Origin: Eledone cirrhosa
Taxonomy: Eukaryota
NCBI GenBank assembly: GCA_964016885.1
Contig: OZ024740.1
Location: 244,900,001-244,964,000 of the forward strand
Direction of reading: 5' to 3'
DNA: 64,000 nt
A program made the position numbers and the translations under genes. The first letter of the stretch is position 1; every line of letters starts with the position of its first letter. Shown here piece by piece: positions 1,468-52,306 of this stretch. The notes under the pieces are model-generated. The model searched no databases, was not told the DNA's origin, and saw nothing but the letters and a program-made list of their open reading frames with translations.

Positions 1468-1802
1468 ATATTAACAAATGGAAACTATATTTATAAAACC
1501 ATATTTATTTCATATTTCAAGGACACCAAAGCAAATTATGGTGCCCTTTCATCAGATAAAATATAATATCGATCAGTTTTATAAACAAATATTGACATAC
1601 CCATAAAGAATGCGACCATGTTTATCCGGGAACTTCCAGCCGACATGGTCGCATTCTTTAAGGGTATGTCAATATTTGTTTATAAAACTGATCGATAATA
1701 TATTTTATCTGATGAAAGGGCACCATAATTTGCTTTGGTGTCCTTGAAATATGAAATAAATATGGTTTTAGAAATATAGTTTCCATTTGTTAATATATTG
1801 TA
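1462..1802. repeat. Long inverted repeat (about 160-bp arms, about 20-nt spacer), probable inverted PLE pseudo-LTR pair
   Basis: Arms near-identical; each has CTGATGA-aagggcacca/tggtgtcctt stem-GAAA (plus strand 1709-1749) but no clear stem III or NUH. Confidence 0.85.
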
Positions 1803-1887
1803 TTTTTACTCCAATAATTTGTTGAGTGCTTTATATCAGTTATAAAAATATTTGCTTGTTGTATCTCCACAAATTAAATATAACTTA

Positions 1888-2458
1888 TACATATATATAT
1901 GTGTGCATGTATGTATATATACATACTACTGTACGTCCGTATACATATATGTATGAACGTGTACATACTTATATTTAAGTAACAGCCGTACTAAGAGTGG
2001 GAAATGAAATTTCGTTTCATTTTTTCCATTTATCGTTTTCGGTGCACCCGGCCGATTAACCCACTCGATATGCAAATTGGGCTACTCAGCCGTTAATATG
2101 CATAAGGAAAGTATATACTTTCAGACGTTCAACAATCTGGCAGGAAGGTATACGTTGCTGACGATAGCTAATAAGCTTGAAACTAGTACAGCGTTCCTTT
2201 GTCAGTGTTGAACAAACGAGCAACGATGGTTGCTAGACACTACGGCTTAATACGGGATGTTTGTTTACAAACACACCGAGTATTATAATAAATGTTCGGT
2301 GAATCCATACGTACATATATATATGTGTGCATGTATGTATATATATACATACTACTGTACGTCTGTATACATATATGTATGTACGTGTACATACTTGTAT
2401 TTAAGTAACAGCTGTACTAAGAGTGGGAAATGAAATTTCGTTTCATTTTTTCCGTTTA
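1888..2458 (+). mobile_element. Non-coding HHR element family A: about 420-bp unit in about 1.35 head-to-tail copies (retrozyme-like or non-autonomous PLE)
   Basis: About 150-bp direct repeats (1888-2033 vs 2306-2458), central HHR, ends in (TA)n; close copy at 50117-50706. Confidence 0.85.
2152..2194 (+). ncRNA. Minimal type I hammerhead ribozyme
   Basis: ACGTTG CTGACGA T-AGCT-aata-AGCT-T GAAA CTAG TA CAGCGT; palindromic stem III ACTAGT; predicted cut after GUA at 2188. Confidence 0.9.
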
Positions 2459-2547
2459 TATATATATATATATATAAGTTATTTCGGGTTCAATCAGGTG
2501 TAACCACAGTAAGTAAAGTACTCAATACATAGCAGAGTATAAATGTT

Positions 2548-3541: not shown

Positions 3542-4896
3542 CACAGGAATTGTGGTAAGGAACCAGGTGGACCATAACGCACCAGAGTACTCAATACTCA
3601 ATACTTAGGGTAGTAGAGTGGGAAATAGGAAAAAGTATGACCCCGGCGGCAGAGCTCAAGCCGTTTCGACTGCTATTTCTGGACAAAATATTTAACGGGC
3701 TTGAAAATTGAACACTCTTGTGTATATGATTGATTAATTCCCTTAATGGCGGTACTCTTACATAGCCACAGGTTAATAACTGAAACCAATAAATAAAAGA
3801 ATACATATAATATATCAGGCCATTCATGTGCAAGATGCAATCGCGTACAAGCTGTATATGGTCAAGTGGTTGGGTATTAAACCAGCACGACACCAGACTA
3901 GCCCAAAGAAGAGAGTTGTTAGAAACCCAGCAACGCACAAACAAGACTTGTTACAAAGACGCATGAACTCGGCATAGAGTCAATGGCTCTCAAGCAACAG
4001 TTAATTGAGACAGAAATACATGGACTAATGGATAGATTTGTGCACTGTGGTGAAGTCAGAATGTATAGGAGAAAGTCACTTCGAACAAAAATCTGGTAGA
4101 TCGAACCAATTTAATCTTTGATTGGTAATCATTTGTAATACTGAATGATCTTCGTATTATCTTTGTATTTCGGGGAATTTTCCCGCCAAATACGTCAATA
4201 TTGGCCTCTGCAAGCCATGTTTTCTTTTATTGTATATTTCATTAATTTTATTCATACACAGGTGTTGGATGTTAATGTAGATGTTCGATTTAATTGTGTG
4301 TAACTTTTAAAATTAACTGATCAACTAGACAATGAAATTGACACTTTCTGAAATGTGAAATATTCGATACTTCACTAGATCGATGAATGATTGACATGCT
4401 AAAATTTTTGTAATGGTGATAACAATCCTAAAGTAAAAGAACTGTATCTCGTGCCCGACTTGGGGATACAAAAGATGATAACGATAATTGCAATGAAGTA
4501 AATATCTACATAGGTGATTCTGCTGGAAACCGCTAGACGGCGCTAGCCGTCAGCTTTTCAATATTCATGGCTAGAAGGCTTTCCAAATATTTATTATTAA
4601 GCATACCGTATATCATTAGATATACGAAATTGTACTTCAAACTAAGCCGGCTTACAGCTCCATATGCAAATGAGGCTAATCAGCTCATCTACAAAGGCGA
4701 AAAATCTATATATTTTCGCCTGCATCAAGTTCCAGCAAAGAGCAGGGGAAACACTGTCCTGATAACAGCCAGAGCCAGAAATATGCATTAACAGTTGTCC
4801 CCCGCTGCTCCTGCTGGAATCCGCTAAACGGCGCGAGCCGTCAGCTTTTTAGTATTCACATACTTGTATAACTATGTCGAAACGGAAATGTTAATT

Positions 4897-24779: not shown

Positions 24780-24822
24780 GTCAAAGCTCTTTCGTCACAC
24801 ATTGTGTGACCTCCTCAGTGAC
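24780..24822 (-). ncRNA. Minimal type I hammerhead ribozyme
   Basis: Minus strand: GTCA CTGAGGA G GTCACAC-aat-GTGTGAC GAAA GAGC TT TGAC. Confidence 0.75.
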
Positions 24823-24848
24823 TGTTTTTTTTATTTTGTGTCACTCCT

Positions 24849-25595
24849 TTGTTCTGTCCTACACCATCTTCTTTTTGTGTCATATATATATATTTATATA
24901 TATATATAGACCCTCATAGAACTGGACATGAAAGAATTTGCCCATTATACAGGAGCAAATCATGGAATAGATTAGATAGGACTAAACATAAGATAGGGAA
25001 AGCCACCGCATGGTACGACAATCAGAGATACCAGAGTGTCATGTTCGTGGACACTACCCCTGGGGGGAAATTAGCTAACCAGTGTAGAAAGGCCCTGAGA
25101 AAGACCCACTTAAAGATTAAAGTGGTAGAAAAGCCAGGAACCACCATAAAATCCCTGATTAGCAAAACCTACCCTTTTAAGAAAACCCACTGTACTAATA
25201 GAAAATGTATCATATGTAGAGTAAACCCCCGGATAAACTGTAAAACTAGAAACGTAGTCTATAGCATAAGATGTACAGAGGGTACTTGCAAAAACATGAC
25301 AACAACATACATAAGCGAGACAGCTCGTAGCATAGGTGAAAGGATAGACCAACACTGGGGGGAACTAAAAGGACGAAAAAACGGTTCAGTACTATACAAA
25401 CACGCCAGACAACAACATGACGGTAACATAGACAACATAGAAATTAAAATAATATCTAAACATAGAAGTGACCCAGCAGATAGGCAAATCAGAGAGGCCA
25501 GTGAAACAGAAATTAGAAGGCCAAAGTTAAACAGAAAAAATGAATGGAATAACAACAACACCCAAACAATCAATACTGACCTAAGAGAAATATAA
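24849..25595 (+). CDS. PLE C-terminal region: thumb, Cys-rich linker and GIY-YIG endonuclease (N-truncated; homology starts at about 24910)
   Basis: CTNRKCIIC...CKTRNVVYSIRC...YISETARSIGERIDQH...LYKH...H...RQIREA...P.LN. Confidence 0.8.
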   Translation: MFCPTPSSFCVIYIYLYIYIDPHRTGHERICPLYRSKSWNRLDRTKHKIGKATAWYDNQRYQSVMFVDTTPGGKLANQCRKALRKTHLKIKVVEKPGTTIKSLISKTYPFKKTHCTNRKCIICRVNPRINCKTRNVVYSIRCTEGTCKNMTTTYISETARSIGERIDQHWGELKGRKNGSVLYKHARQQHDGNIDNIEIKIISKHRSDPADRQIREASETEIRRPKLNRKNEWNNNNTQTINTDLREI

Positions 25596-25659
25596 ATAAA
25601 TAAACAGATTAAATAAAGATGGCGTAGACATACAATACAACAGGAGGAAACATAATAGC

Positions 25660-25702
25660 ACCACTGATGATGTTGCAGATATGCAACGAAAGAACTTTGT
25701 TA
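25660..25702 (+). ncRNA. Minimal hammerhead motif in PLE pseudo-LTR (stem I weak)
   Basis: CA CTGATGA T GTTGCA-gata-TGCAAC GAAA GAAC TT TG. Confidence 0.6.
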
Positions 25703-25892
25703 GACTATATATATGTGTTAGTGTCTATATTATATCTGAATTTTTTACCGTTGGTCAGTCAATGGTAAACATTGAGGACCGAATAAATTAACTGATATAA
25801 AAGATACAGAAGCGAAAACCAACCAAACAGTGAGTGTGTTCTGTTATTAATTCTGGCAATGTTATTACAACAATATGACCCTCCCCAAGTAT

Positions 25893-25955
<63 letters not shown>

Positions 25956-40685: not shown

Positions 40686-41137
40686 GGGCAAAGGAGCTCT
40701 TAAGAGTCAATGGCCATCCAAAATCACCGGGAGAGATGACCCCTTAGCCTTTGTCAAGGCAGAATTCTGGGAGAAGGAAAACTCTGATATAACACCTGCA
40801 ACCCTGATGGTATCCAATGATGTTGACTTGTTCTTCTTTTTGGTAAATATCATCTTGGTTAAGAGAGTGGGACTGTCTTTGTGCAGTGCCTTTGCTCACT
40901 ATAAAAGCTTCACGGCACAGGCATTGCTTTTTATCTGGAGATCTCTCTGCACTTGTCGTCAAGTAGTACCATGGGCCCAGCACTATGTGTCAATAATTGT
41001 CACAAGTGTAGTGTTTGTACCAGAGTTATCAAGTCGCTGGCTGGACTAAAAAGTCACACTTGTTCAGCGCATCGGTTGGAGTTCTCCTACATGGATATAA
41101 AGTAGTGGCCGTACTCGAAAACGAGTTGGCAGCCACC
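40686..41137 (+). mobile_element. Non-coding RTE-derived bipartite SINE-like element
   Basis: RTE 5'UTR-like ttagcctttgtcaaggcag...ggagaaggaaaactctga and RTE-like 3' end ctcgaaaacgagttggcagcc; copies at 43446-43896 (minus) and 51790-52306 (plus). Confidence 0.7.
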
Positions 41138-41179
41138 ACCATATATGTAAATATGTATATATGTATATATATATATATC

Positions 41180-42964: not shown

Positions 42965-43445
42965 ATCTTTTCACTCGGAGAATATAAAATTCCCGAGTTC
43001 AAATTACGAACTGGCGCTATTCAAAATTGTTCCCGCGATGAGAATAATATATATATATATATATATAGTTGCCGACTGCTCCATATGCAAATTAGACTTA
43101 TCAGTCCATGTACATAGGTATCAAAACTATATTTTAGCCTACATTGGATTCCAGCGGTGAGCAAGGAGAAAAAGCGATTTCTTGATAACGAGCATTGTGA
43201 GAAACAGTCGACTGTCAGCAGATTACCCGCTCCTGCTTTAGCTCGAATCAACCTGATGGCGCTAGCTATCACTTTCCTAAATTCATAGCTAAGGCTTTCA
43301 AATGTCTATTCATAAACAAATGTGTATTCACAAACATACTGTATATCGCTAGATATACAAATACATACATACATACATACATACATACATACATACATAC
43401 ATACATACATACATACATACATACATACATACATACATACATACA

Positions 43446-43896
43446 TGGTGGCTGCCAACTCGTTTTCGAGTATGGCCACTACTTTATATCCATGTAGGAG
43501 AACCCCTACCGGTGCGCTGAACGAGTGTGACTTTTTAGTCCAGCCAGCGACTTGAAAACTCAGGTACAGACACTACACTTGTGACAATTAGTGACACATA
43601 GTGCTGGGCCCATGGTACCATGTGACGACAAGTGCAGAGAGATCTCCAGATATAAAGCAATGCCTGTGCCGTGAAGCTTTTATAGTGAGCAAAGGCACTG
43701 CATAAAGCCAGTCCCACTCTCCTAACCAAGATGATATTTACCAAAAAGAAGAACAAGTCAACATCATTGGATACCATCAGGGTTGCAGGTGTTATATCAG
43801 AGTTTTCCTTCTCCCAGAATTCTGCCTTGACAAAGGCTAAGGGGTCATCTCTCCCGGTGATTTTGGATGGCCATTGACTCTTAAGAGCTCCTTTGC
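43446..43896 (-). mobile_element. RTE-derived bipartite SINE-like element between (TACA)n tracts
   Basis: Reverse-complement match to 40686-41137. Confidence 0.75.
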
Positions 43897-47384: not shown

Positions 47385-49598
47385 TTACCTATGCAAATAA
47401 GTAAAGGAATAAACAAAACATATACTTAGCTCCCACATCAAGACGTAAAATATCCACGTATAGATCGTGCTATCCGTTAGGGTATAACGTGGGCTGTAAT
47501 ACAGGAAAGTTTTGTGCAATTTATGTTTACAAGCCGAAATTGCCTCAGATTTTTTGTTTAAGATGTGGTCTGTGGCGTAGAGTATTTCCAGGGCCTCGGC
47601 GGCGCAGAGGTCACATGGTCTTTTATTTCCGTTATACGATCTAGCCCTAGCTAGGATCTCCCAGTGTAACTTATATTGGGTGTGGTTGTCTTTTAGACTC
47701 CAGATATAAGCTGAAAGTGACGTCATATTCCTTCTTAGAGGGTAACGAAAAGAATGGGTATGCATGTAAAGACGCTGCTTGAAACTATTGGCGGTTAACC
47801 CTATGTAGGCCCTACGGGACGTGGGTGTTACAACCTTACATTTGTAGACAATGTTACTAGAGAGGCATTTTCCGGATAGGGGACAATCAGCCCGATTCCT
47901 ACAATTACAGTTAGTACTAACTACAGGGTTGCACGTGTTCCTACGGCTAGGTAGTTTAGCTAAATTTGAAGCTGTGATGTTATGTGCAAGGTTAGGAGCC
48001 GTAGAGTAAGAAATTTTAATAGTGTTTCTATTAAAAATGTTACTATATTTATGTGTAGGGGGAAAATGCTTCGTAATAAGGGAAAGAAAGATCTTAGCTA
48101 ATGGTGTGGCCACCTCCATGTTATATGGTGGGTTAAACCAACAAATGCGACGGGATCTATTTCTTCTAGGTCTATTCTCGTACTCTGTATATGCTACCCT
48201 ATCGACAAATCCACTTCGAGCAAGAACTTCATTGTAATAAGTGGAATGGTCGTTGAAAATGCGCTCGTTGGTGGAAAGACAGGAAAGACTCAACGAAACG
48301 TTTTTTACCAGGTTCTTGGTTATGCTGGCAGAATGGTTGGAATGCTTACTTATGTAATTAAGCGTATCATTCGGCTTTCTATACTGGTAATACAACCCAT
48401 TCAATAAATTGAGGGTAACGTCGAGGTAATTAACGACCGAGAGATTGGCCTCAACCTGTATAGAGAGGTTGAAGCCTTTAAAGAAGGCTGTGAGTTCTTT
48501 TCTGAATCTGTCGCAAGCACGAGGTCCGCACTTAGTCATGGTCAAAAGACCATCGTCACGGTACAAACCACCGCCCGCGTTGGGGAATTTGTCCTTGATA
48601 GAGAAAAGAAGGAAAAGGCCAATAAGATCAGTAACCTCCGCAGAATCACTGGCGCCCATACTCACGTCGAATGGGGTACTATTGGATTTTTTAATCCAAA
48701 TAGAGTCGTCGAAATTAATCACCGACTTTCGGGCATTAAGGATGACATCAACTTCGAAATCCTTAACCACTGTGAGTGTTTTAGCGAAATTGATAGCTCT
48801 AAGGAGAAGTGGTAAAGTGATGGAGGAGTAGTAATTGTTGATGTCGAATTGGATAAAACGGCAATGTTCCTTGTTACATATGCCGTTGAACCAATCAATC
48901 ACCGCGAAAGAATTGTTCCACAGTGCGAGAGGGGCCAAACTTCTAATTTCAGGTATAATTCTATCAAGAATCGTTTTACTAAGTCTACCTAAATCGGACT
49001 TCGTAGGGTTAATAAGCCGAATAGAGGGGTTGTTCGGAAAATTGGATTTGTGATCCTTCAGGGTAAAGTGGGGAGAGATAGGGTCCAGAGGTTCGGTCCG
49101 GTCCAGGATGTTGAGATCAGATGTGATTTTAAACCCAGCATCGTTGATTTCATTGATGACACACCGATCAGTTTTACGGTAATCCTTAGTTACAGCATTA
49201 TGTAGTAGTTGATGGTAAGTACTGCGCTCCACTTGATATAGGTTGCCTGTTTTGTCGGAATGGACGTGCACGGCGTTAGAATCCTTAATAGAACGAATTC
49301 TATTCTTCAGGTCTTGCTGGAAGGAATTACTCCTATTCCGAAATTTGATACTCCGAATGAGTTCCAAGACATCATTTTCGAAGGGTAGCAATGCTGGGTT
49401 CCACGGAGGGTTATTATAGGTTTTAAATCCAAATTTGTCCTGTTTGTTGTTTGCTTTTCGCGGATTATCGAAATAAAAGGCACGCCAACGCAACCTTTTA
49501 ATGAACGCGTCTGTTTTCTGTATCAGGAGTTTTAGGTATGTTTTCCTGCTTGGTACGGGTATGTTCTTTGTAGAAATATTCAGATGTTGTTTCTGCAT
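47385..49598 (-). CDS. PLE reverse transcriptase with C-terminal GIY-YIG endonuclease, 737 aa (motifs suggest the Hydra clade)
   Basis: SDKTGNLY; IRLINP; FDINNYYSSI; MGASDSAEVTDL; LYRDDGL; VNYLDVTL; WFNPPY; CNCRNRADCPLSGKC; IVYKC..AYIGLT..FKQR. Confidence 0.95.
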   Translation of the reverse strand: MQKQHLNISTKNIPVPSRKTYLKLLIQKTDAFIKRLRWRAFYFDNPRKANNKQDKFGFKTYNNPPWNPALLPFENDVLELIRSIKFRNRSNSFQQDLKNRIRSIKDSNAVHVHSDKTGNLYQVERSTYHQLLHNAVTKDYRKTDRCVINEINDAGFKITSDLNILDRTEPLDPISPHFTLKDHKSNFPNNPSIRLINPTKSDLGRLSKTILDRIIPEIRSLAPLALWNNSFAVIDWFNGICNKEHCRFIQFDINNYYSSITLPLLLRAINFAKTLTVVKDFEVDVILNARKSVINFDDSIWIKKSNSTPFDVSMGASDSAEVTDLIGLFLLFSIKDKFPNAGGGLYRDDGLLTMTKCGPRACDRFRKELTAFFKGFNLSIQVEANLSVVNYLDVTLNLLNGLYYQYRKPNDTLNYISKHSNHSASITKNLVKNVSLSLSCLSTNERIFNDHSTYYNEVLARSGFVDRVAYTEYENRPRRNRSRRICWFNPPYNMEVATPLAKIFLSLITKHFPPTHKYSNIFNRNTIKISYSTAPNLAHNITASNLAKLPSRRNTCNPVVSTNCNCRNRADCPLSGKCLSSNIVYKCKVVTPTSRRAYIGLTANSFKQRLYMHTHSFRYPLRRNMTSLSAYIWSLKDNHTQYKLHWEILARARSYNGNKRPCDLCAAEALEILYATDHILNKKSEAISACKHKLHKTFLYYSPRYTLTDSTIYTWIFYVLMWELSICFVYSFTYLHR

Positions 49599-49751
49599 GA
49601 TGAATATAAGTCAATAGAGTGCTCAACCGAAGGAGCCAAATAGTAATAATAATAAAATTGAAGACTAAAATCCAAAGAGGGCTCGATAAGGAAAATATAT
49701 ATCAAATATATAAGAACCGAAGAGCAAATGTTTATTAAAATAACAGATTAA

Positions 49752-50116: not shown

Positions 50117-50706
50117 AATCCATACGTACATATATATATGTGTGCATGTGTGTGTATATATATACATACTACTGTACGTCTGTATACATATATGTATGTA
50201 CGTGTACATACTTATATTTAAGTAACAGCCGTACTAAGAGTGAGAAATGAACTTTCGTTTCATTTTTTTCCACTTATCGTTTCCTGTGCACCCGGTTGAT
50301 TAACTCACTCGATATGCAAATTAAGCTGCTCAGCCGTTAATATGCATAAGGAAAGTATATACTTTCAGACGTTCAATCATCTGGCAGGAAGGTATACGTT
50401 GCTGACGATAGCTAATAAGCTTGAAACTAGTACAGCGTTCCTTTGTCAGTGTTGAAGAAACGAGCAACGATGGTTGCTAGACACTACGGCTTAATACGGG
50501 ATGTTTGTTTACAAACACACCGAGCATTATAATAAATGTTCAGTGAATCCATACGTACATATATATATGTGTGTGCATGTGTGTATATATATATACATAC
50601 TACTGTACGTCTGTATACATATATGTATGTACGTATACATACTTATATTTAAGTAACAGCCGTACTAAGAGTGAGAAATGAGATTTCGTTTCATTTTTTC
50701 CGTTTA
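50117..50706 (+). mobile_element. Second copy of HHR element family A (HHR at 50396-50438)
   Basis: Same partial-tandem layout and end point (ccgtttatata) as 1888-2458; HHR sequence identical. Confidence 0.88.
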
Positions 50707-50734
50707 TATATGTATATATATATAATAGAAATAG

Positions 50735-51789: not shown

Positions 51790-52306
51790 AGGTTTCTTGG
51801 TGAGGAGGGTGACTTTGGACATCCTGCAGGACTAAAAACAAAACCTGTCAAAGGGCAAAGGAGCTCTTAAGAGTCAATGGCCATCCAAAATCACCGGGAG
51901 AGATGACCCCTTAGCCTTTGTCAAGGCAGAATTCTAGGAGAAGGAAAACTCTGATATAACACCTGCAACCCTGATGGTATCCAATGATGTTGACTTGTTC
52001 TTCTTTTTGGTAAATATCATCTTGGTTAAGAGAGTGGGACTGGCTTTGTGCAGTGCCTTTGCTCACTATAAAAGCTTCACGGCACAGGCATTGCTTTATA
52101 TCTGGAGATCTCTCTGCACCTGTCGTCACATGGTACCAAGGGCCCAGCACTATGTGTCAATAATTGTCACAGGTGTAGTGTTTGTACCAGAGTTTTCAAA
52201 GTCGCTGGCTGGACTAAAAAGTCACACTTGTTCAGCGCATCGGTAGGGGTTCTCCTACATGGATATAAAGTAGTGGCCGTACTCGAAAACGAGTTGGCAG
52301 CCACCA
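51790..52306 (+). mobile_element. Longest copy of the RTE-derived bipartite element, flanked by (TGTA)n
   Basis: Matches 40686-41137 with about 60 bp extra upstream. Confidence 0.75.

What the first reader, a model, noticed from the sequence alone, without database searches (positions are those of the whole stretch)
1888..2458. Family A: about 420-bp non-coding element with a minimal, probably dimer-dependent hammerhead; twin copy 48 kb away
Seen: two copies (1888-2458 and 50117-50706) share the same 1.35-unit layout and the same 3' end before (TA)n. The HHR is identical in both while flanking sequence shows substitutions. Stem III is only the palindrome ACTAGT. Known: minimal PLE and satellite HHRs with palindromic stem III cleave efficiently as dimers. 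Inference: terminal redundancy reflects reverse transcription of a circular or multimeric template, and the ribozyme may be under selection.
Basis: partly seen in the sequence, partly recalled or inferred. Interest (0 to 1): 0.75.

Follow-up and report, generated by a model that had tools for sequence, protein, structure and literature searches.

The report
Hammerhead retrozyme with Penelope insertion footprint
These are two ordinary copies of a protein-free 425-base repeat found thousands of times in this animal genome; it carries a hammerhead ribozyme fold predicted to cut as a dimer, and its fixed ends and back-to-back arrays show the pattern of Penelope-type jumping genes, whose enzyme likely copies it from a probably circular RNA.

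Summary
They are two of thousands (5,299 exact 36-nt ribozyme cores in G000). The motif has canonical metazoan type I geometry with two weak points: a one-pair helix III (palindrome ACTAGT) and U·U at the base of helix II. Structure covaries across sister families (11 of 15 pairs). Within the young subfamily it decays at background rate (1.58% vs 1.89%, p=0.52). 72 of 87 arms end at two sites 56 nt apart, mostly in (TA)n. In inverted insertions one arm has the tail and the other lacks it (17 of 18); an autonomous Penelope-like element here does the same (8 of 8). Arms of up to 14 near-identical units, some with variants fixed in both arms, fit rolling-circle reverse transcription. No 5' end lies at the cleavage site. 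In 3 of 4 higher-order arrays one ribozyme per period is defect-free (suggestive only). Expression, circularity, cleavage and the partner enzyme are untested or not found. Verdict: new member of the non-LTR retrozymes. This scan reported the same family and reading before, on other DNA of this genome.

The parts
1888..2459 (+). Copy 1: 1.35 units (u279-u426, then u1-u426; u1 = 2034)
1888..2033 (+). 5' partial repeat; starts in the unit's TA-rich tract; 5 substitutions against the 3' repeat
2070..2077 (+). Octamer ATGCAAAT, kept in subfamilies A1, A2 and family B; role unknown (candidate POU-factor site, recalled)
   Evidence: no match to this genome's U1 upstream regions
2127..2213 (+). Extended helix I enclosing the hammerhead
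2147..2197 (+). Type I hammerhead: core 2158-2164, helix II 2165-2178 (U·U at base, loop UAAUAA), GAAA 2179-2182, palindrome 2182-2187, predicted cleavage after A2188
2312..2391 (+). Long TA-rich imperfect hairpin (u279-u358); frequent 5' junction site
2404..2459 (+). 56-nt 'tail' between the two fixed 3' ends (u370 = 2403, u426 = 2459); inferred reverse-transcription start sites
2460..2477 (.). (TA)n target remnant
50117..50707 (+). Copy 2: 1.38 units, (TA)n on both sides; independent insertion
50391..50441 (+). Hammerhead of copy 2, identical to copy 1
47385..49610 (-). Neighbouring autonomous Penelope-like ORF (741 aa, RT and GIY-YIG motifs read by eye; no Pfam hit). Same tail rule and TA target, but no shared end sequence: an example of the enzyme class, not a shown partner

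Best explanation
A protein-free retroelement of the non-LTR retrozyme kind, present in thousands of copies, whose tandem transcripts are likely cut by a dimeric hammerhead, likely ligated into circles, and likely pasted into (TA)n by a Penelope-like RT/GIY-YIG enzyme that starts at two fixed sites 56 nt apart. Steps: (1) tandem copies are transcribed (inferred, untested); (2) neighbouring ribozymes pair through the palindrome and cut after u155 (predicted); (3) a host ligase closes the monomer (from the literature on other retrozymes); (4) the enzyme nicks (TA)n and primes at u426 or u370, both of which end in a few TA-like bases that can pair with the target (ends shown, enzyme inferred); (5) when both target strands prime, one uses each site, giving back-to-back arms with a tail on one side only (pattern shown, mechanism inferred); (6) the RT runs round the circle for 0.2 to 14 turns or more (inferred). 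The window's copies are single-armed products of about 1.35 turns. After insertion copies decay neutrally (shown); selection acts on source lineages.
For: Copy number: 5,299 exact cores, 10,322 anchor hits, 34,967 tail-motif hits including sister subfamily A2. Ends: 39 arms at u417-426 and 33 at u358-375 of 87; 63 of these 72 run into (TA)n. Inverted pairs with both ends at fixed sites: 17 of 18 independent pairs mix the two (p=7e-5); 7 of 7 more in long arrays. The autonomous PLE of this window: 8 of 8 inverted copies among 20 loci do the same. Family B, 55-78% identical by region, keeps both end sites. Tail on one end, inversions and TA bias are PLE hallmarks (PMC8557442); two RT start sites define the tail in vitro (PMC11167929). 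Circle: arms of 5-14 units nearly without differences; 6 of 20 arrays carry variants fixed in all units, in both arms where two arms were seen; 0 of 87 5' ends at the cleavage site. Ribozyme: 11 of 15 pairs covary, 0/500 shuffles; 11,288 sister cores against 19 control hits.
Against: No expression, circle or cleavage data. No autonomous PLE sharing end or ribozyme sequence was found among the families checked. 13 of 20 arrays have no private variant and are alike, which a homogeneous master array read through as linear RNA would also give; those arrays were picked as best hits and are biased to youth. In vitro the anole PLE uses uncleaved RNA and does not need its hammerhead (PMC11167929). 8 of 9 Xenopus retrozyme dimers did not cleave in vitro (bioRxiv 10.64898/2026.07.22.740005). 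The ribozyme is not more conserved than its flanks within the young subfamily (p=0.52). One inverted pair had two long ends (L088). In 7 of 36 multi-piece insertions the repeats are no more alike within than between insertions.
Confidence: 0.7

Rival explanations
1. Same Penelope-dependent element, but the template is an uncleaved linear multimer read through from existing arrays; homogeneity and higher-order periods come from copying master arrays and from unequal exchange in DNA; the hammerhead acts late or not at all.
For: PMC11167929: unprocessed RNA is the main substrate and ribozyme mutants still insert. 13 of 20 young arrays are alike. The 50-unit array is periodic only in part, and L093 units 1-6 are identical while 7-10 are mosaic, as DNA-level expansion would give. 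The 2026 preprint proposes unequal crossover.
Against: Variants fixed in every unit of both arms of single insertions. Both arms are multimeric yet end exactly at the start sites. A 14-unit RNA would have to escape 14 intact ribozymes. Covariation across families shows the fold is maintained.
Confidence: 0.2
2. The unit is only the terminal repeat (pLTR) of an unidentified autonomous Penelope-like element, and the copies are 5'-truncated stumps.
For: Fixed 3' ends, tail, inversions and a hammerhead are all pLTR features (PMC8557442, PMC4209133).
Against: Upstream of the unit lies another unit, not an ORF, in arrays of up to 50. None of 30 tail-anchored loci ran into coding sequence. The ribozyme is canonical, not the PLE minimal type.
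Confidence: 0.05
3. A dispersed satellite or Helitron-like repeat that spreads as DNA; the hammerhead is a relic.
For: Tandem arrays and hairpin-rich sequence; neutral decay of copies.
Against: Variable 5' ends with two fixed 3' ends, the one-tail rule shared with an RT-encoding element, and RNA-type covariation including G·U pairs.
Confidence: 0.03

Closest known systems
Metazoan non-LTR retrozymes (Cervera and de la Pena 2020, PMC7229834; review PMC7761336; Li, Clavereau and Pollet 2026, bioRxiv 10.64898/2026.07.22.740005)
   Same: Non-coding, low-GC unit of about 425 nt, one canonical type I hammerhead per unit, monomers to 50-mers, thousands of copies, highly self-paired predicted circle, PLEs in the same genome.
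   Different: Fixed start sites, tail rule and two-armed insertions are not described in the parts read; the review says the repeats show no motif that points to the partner. Expression and circles are shown there, untested here. No homologous pLTR found here, unlike 24 of 57 Xenopus families.
Axolotl HHR_Amex1 and HHR_Amex2 (PMC7229834)
   Same: One-pair helix III with palindromic tetraloop (Amex1); U·U at the base of helix II (Amex2); both cleave poorly as monomers and well as dimers.
   Different: This motif combines both weak points; most invertebrate retrozyme hammerheads in that paper cleave well as monomers.
EN+ Penelope-like element insertions (PMC8557442; anole Poseidon, PMC11167929)
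   Same: Partial tandems, inverted 5' copy, tail on one end only, two RT start sites, AT-rich target.
   Different: No ORF; tail 56 nt rather than 30-40; both arms can be long multimers; canonical rather than minimal hammerhead.
Newt satellite 2 (Coats et al. 1994, seen only as a title and one citing sentence in PMC2220036)
   Same: Hammerhead repeat with a candidate internal promoter; an octamer in that promoter is recalled, not read.
   Different: No resemblance to this genome's U1 upstream elements was found.

Membership tests
Non-LTR retrozyme | Type I hammerhead in each unit | tested here: met
   Rfam HH9 aligns at 19.7 bits, below its gathering score of 52
Non-LTR retrozyme | Short non-coding tandem unit, monomers to multimers, dispersed | tested here: met
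   420-430 nt; 1 to 50 units; no ORF of 120 aa over either copy
Non-LTR retrozyme | No LTR/PBS/PPT organisation | tested here: met
   the terminal repeat is a partial unit of variable length and lacks the ribozyme; PBS and PPT were not searched for separately
Non-LTR retrozyme | Expressed as linear and circular RNA | not testable with these tools
   no RNA holder listed
Non-LTR retrozyme | Self-cleavage in vitro | not testable with these tools
   energy estimates only
PLE minimal hammerhead (min-HHR) | Long helix II (7-8 bp), short helix I, poorly defined loop 1 | tested here: not met
   4-bp helix II, 6-bp helix I, conserved loop 1 and loop 2 (definition in PMC4209133)
PLE-mobilised insertion | Fixed 3' ends, tail at one end only, 5' inversion, microsatellite target | tested here: met
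PLE-mobilised insertion | Sequence shared with an autonomous PLE | tested here: inconclusive
   none with two families read in full at their ends and several more seen as fragments; the genome holds many more PLE families
Autonomous PLE | RT and GIY-YIG ORF | tested here: not met
snRNA-type internal promoter | Octamer plus PSE like the host's snRNA genes | tested here: inconclusive
   octamer conserved; 9 of 12 U1 loci examined have no perfect octamer in 330 nt upstream, and 4 PSE regions score no better than shuffles

The most novel reading that the evidence does not exclude
The genome keeps a record of ribozyme activity and of twin priming. A Penelope enzyme dimer primes both target strands at two sites on one RNA circle, and the repeat period of an insertion equals the size of that circle: monomer circles when every hammerhead cuts, dimer or tetramer circles when crippled hammerheads are skipped. 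Array period would then be a genome-wide in vivo activity screen of hammerhead variants.
Probability: 0.35. Interest if true: 0.72.

Novelty: new member of a known kind. Interest (0 to 1): 0.5.

Why it matters
Which enzyme copies animal retrozymes, where it starts and whether a circle is the template are proposed but not shown in the papers read. This family gives exact start sites (u370, u426), a strict one-tail rule shared with an intact Penelope-like element in the same genome, and arrays whose periods predict which ribozyme variants cut. Each can be tested with the existing in vitro PLE assay. The two copies in the window are unremarkable in themselves.

Tried and rejected
1. 'Twin' link: rejected. 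2. Ribozyme conservation among copies: the first test was inflated by an 8-nt indel polymorphism; corrected, no difference. 3. Cleaved linear monomer as template: 0 of 87 5' ends within 5 nt of u156, 2.2 expected by chance. 4. Partner search: the window's PLE ORF at 47385-49610, the Neptune-like family at 24822-25900 and PLE fragments next to copies share no end sequence. 5. snRNA-type promoter: no support from U1 loci. 6. A-to-I editing scars, a lead from e1-8803865: distinct alleles A>G 34 vs T>C 25, p=0.44; an excess appears only when inherited alleles are counted repeatedly (75 vs 38). 7. Expression: no RNA holder listed; laid contigs of 4 of 6 runs of unrecorded kind and only showed subfamily variants. 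8. Rfam on the whole window: the 150 rows shown of 202 were miRNA and other models on microsatellites. 9. Pfam gave no family for the PLE ORFs; no Atlas result, so the clade of the 741-aa ORF rests on motifs read by eye. 10. Coats 1994 and Lunse 2017 are not held. The supplement of PMC7229834 could not be read, one of PMC4209133 was not searched, and preprint supplements are closed; any could list this family.

Full report
Observation. Both copies exist. With u1-u426 = window 2034-2459, copy 1 is u279-u426 plus a full unit (1888-2459) and copy 2 is u269-u426 plus a full unit (50117-50707). Both end at the same base before (TA)n. They differ by 25 substitutions in about 570 nt. Two diagnostic positions are shared by both repeats within each copy and differ between copies (1911/2335, 2000/2426), so each came from its own template variant. 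The hammerhead is identical, but so is 2214-2280; the chance of no change in 43 nt is about 0.15.

Family. G000 (3.0 Gb, 1,796 contigs; the organism was not established, its character recalls octopus genomes) holds 5,299 exact copies of the 36-nt core, 10,322 hits to a 20-nt anchor outside it with up to one mismatch and 34,967 hits to a tail motif shared with sister subfamily A2. The 41 best matches to copy 1 are 98-100% identical and do not include copy 2. A2 (18,295 motif hits, many units 456-508 nt) and family B (466-469 nt; 11,288 descriptor hits, mostly B among the 100 listed, against 19 control hits) align along the whole unit.

Ribozyme. Helix I has 6 bp, a UAU/U internal loop and a long distal stem (2127-2213); helix II has U·U plus 3 bp and the loop UAAUAA; helix III is A-CUAG-U. 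This is the canonical metazoan type I geometry of PMC4209133 (part 1 of 4 read), not its min-HHR. Rfam HH9 aligns weakly, 19.7 bits. On 10 hand-picked family representatives, 11 of 15 pairs change on both sides (0/500 shuffles; slid controls 0-3). These rows stand for only about four lineages, and family B was found with a pattern that fixed the core and palindrome, so their identity there is by construction; the helix I, helix II and loop consensus are not. One further family has a different palindrome, ACGCGT, and also U·U. The monomer helix III costs 5.4 kcal/mol and has pair probability 0.0; two palindromes pair at -4.8. Axolotl motifs with either weak point need dimers (PMC7229834, passages and Discussion read). 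Among 45 insertions sampled by an anchor outside the ribozyme, substitutions are 22/1390 inside and 170/9001 outside (p=0.52); singletons 0.94% and 0.89%. The 11 catalytic positions carry 5 singletons in 355 cells and no shared allele; the two shared alleles in the motif are a loop II change and a U·G to C-G change. So copies decay neutrally and constraint shows only between lineages.

Ends. I analysed 56 loci from the first-listed places on contig C1 (two were added because they looked inverted; one duplicate and the 50-unit array were left out). Of 87 arms, 39 end at u417-426, 33 at u358-375 and 15 elsewhere; 63 of the 72 run into (TA)n. Of 25 inverted pairs, 18 mix the two ends, 1 has two long ends, none has two short ends and 6 have one interrupted end; counting a local duplicate once gives 17 of 18 (p=7e-5). 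Seven of seven long arrays with both ends visible agree. The intact Penelope-like family at 47385-49610 (61 matches scored, many open) has two ends about 88 nt apart, targets (TA)n, and 8 of 8 inverted copies among 20 loci pair a tailed with a tail-less end. A second, Neptune-like family shows two ends about 46 nt apart. Family B keeps both sites. PMC8557442 (passages) describes the tail at one end, inversions and TA bias for PLEs; PMC11167929 (parts 1-2 of 4) maps the tail to two RT start sites. I infer priming of the two target strands at the two sites. 5' ends are spread over the unit, with 9 of 87 at u264-282 near the TA tract, which accounts for the recurring 1.35-unit layout.

Template. 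71 of 87 arms span the cleavage site and no 5' end lies within 5 nt of it. Seventeen array loci found as best hits to a 5-unit query have arms of 5-14 units with almost no differences and intact ribozymes. Of 20 arrays compared, 6 carry variants fixed in all units, in both arms for four of them, 13 carry none and 1 is mixed. This fits rolling-circle copying but does not exclude read-through of master arrays. Cut at the cleavage site, four arrays show higher-order periods: L093, L052 and L027 (period 2; lag-2 difference 0.1-0.5% against 1.3-3.7% at lag 1) and the first 16-19 units of a 50-unit array (period 4). In L093, L052 and the tetramers exactly one ribozyme per period is free of defects; in L027 both units carry the same distal mismatch. 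Homogeneous arrays had intact ribozymes nearly throughout (for example 15 of 15, 31 of 31, 9 of 9). With four cases and defects defined after seeing the data, this is a lead only.

Not found. No autonomous element shares end or ribozyme sequence. The conserved octamer has no counterpart upstream of 9 U1 genes examined. No editing skew at the level of distinct alleles.

Literature. Non-LTR retrozymes and their likely dependence on PLEs are published (PMC7229834; PMC7761336, passages; bioRxiv 10.64898/2026.07.22.740005, parts 1-3 of 5). Searches listed no paper on a cephalopod retrozyme, on fixed start sites in retrozymes, or on twin priming by PLEs; unread supplements and subscription journals may hold these. 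Earlier notes of this scan give the same reading for this family and its sisters; they are not independent support.

Verdict. A new member of a known kind, with genomic footprints that make the assumed copying step testable. Interest 0.5.

Noticed in passing
window 1500-1885 and 2478-2720: Copy 1 sits between two fold-back elements with hammerhead-like cores in inverted pairs (near 1707 +, 1555 -, 2612 +); insertions appear nested in each other's TA tails.
   Followed up: no
window 43070-43330 and 4530-4870: Two related repeats carry the same octamer box as family A; 43183 has a hammerhead-like motif with a U3-A8 core variant and a long palindromic helix III, read by eye.
   Followed up: no
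window 59774 (+), 24818 (-), 60278 (-): Further hammerhead-like motifs of other families.
   Followed up: no
window 47385-49610 (-): Young, high-copy Penelope-like family with intact 713-741-aa frames, an 88-nt tail, TA targeting and no canonical hammerhead in 20 loci; Pfam does not detect it.
   Followed up: partly
window 24822-25900 (+); L211-L222: Neptune-like PLE with open frames of over 1,100 aa elsewhere, a minimal hammerhead-like motif in its pLTR and a 46-nt tail.
   Followed up: partly
L210:2940-3010 (-): A further hammerhead family with palindrome ACGCGT and the same U·U and UAAUAA loop; related in helix II to window 2612.
   Followed up: partly
L068; L079 and L080: Whole two-armed insertions duplicated locally (2.6 kb apart) and at a distance (930 kb apart, inverted), showing DNA-level duplication also occurs.
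   Followed up: no
L253-L263: U1 genes of this genome share an upstream motif near -260 and one near -60 but have no perfect octamer within 330 nt.
   Followed up: no
window 2104-2116 and variants: Some subfamilies, and the 3' region of the neighbouring PLE, carry a 5' splice-site-like AGGTAAGTAT sequence; meaning unknown.
   Followed up: no
window 40688-41138, 43446-43896, 51855-52199: Three copies of another 450-nt repeat, 96-97% alike, flanked by microsatellites.
   Followed up: no
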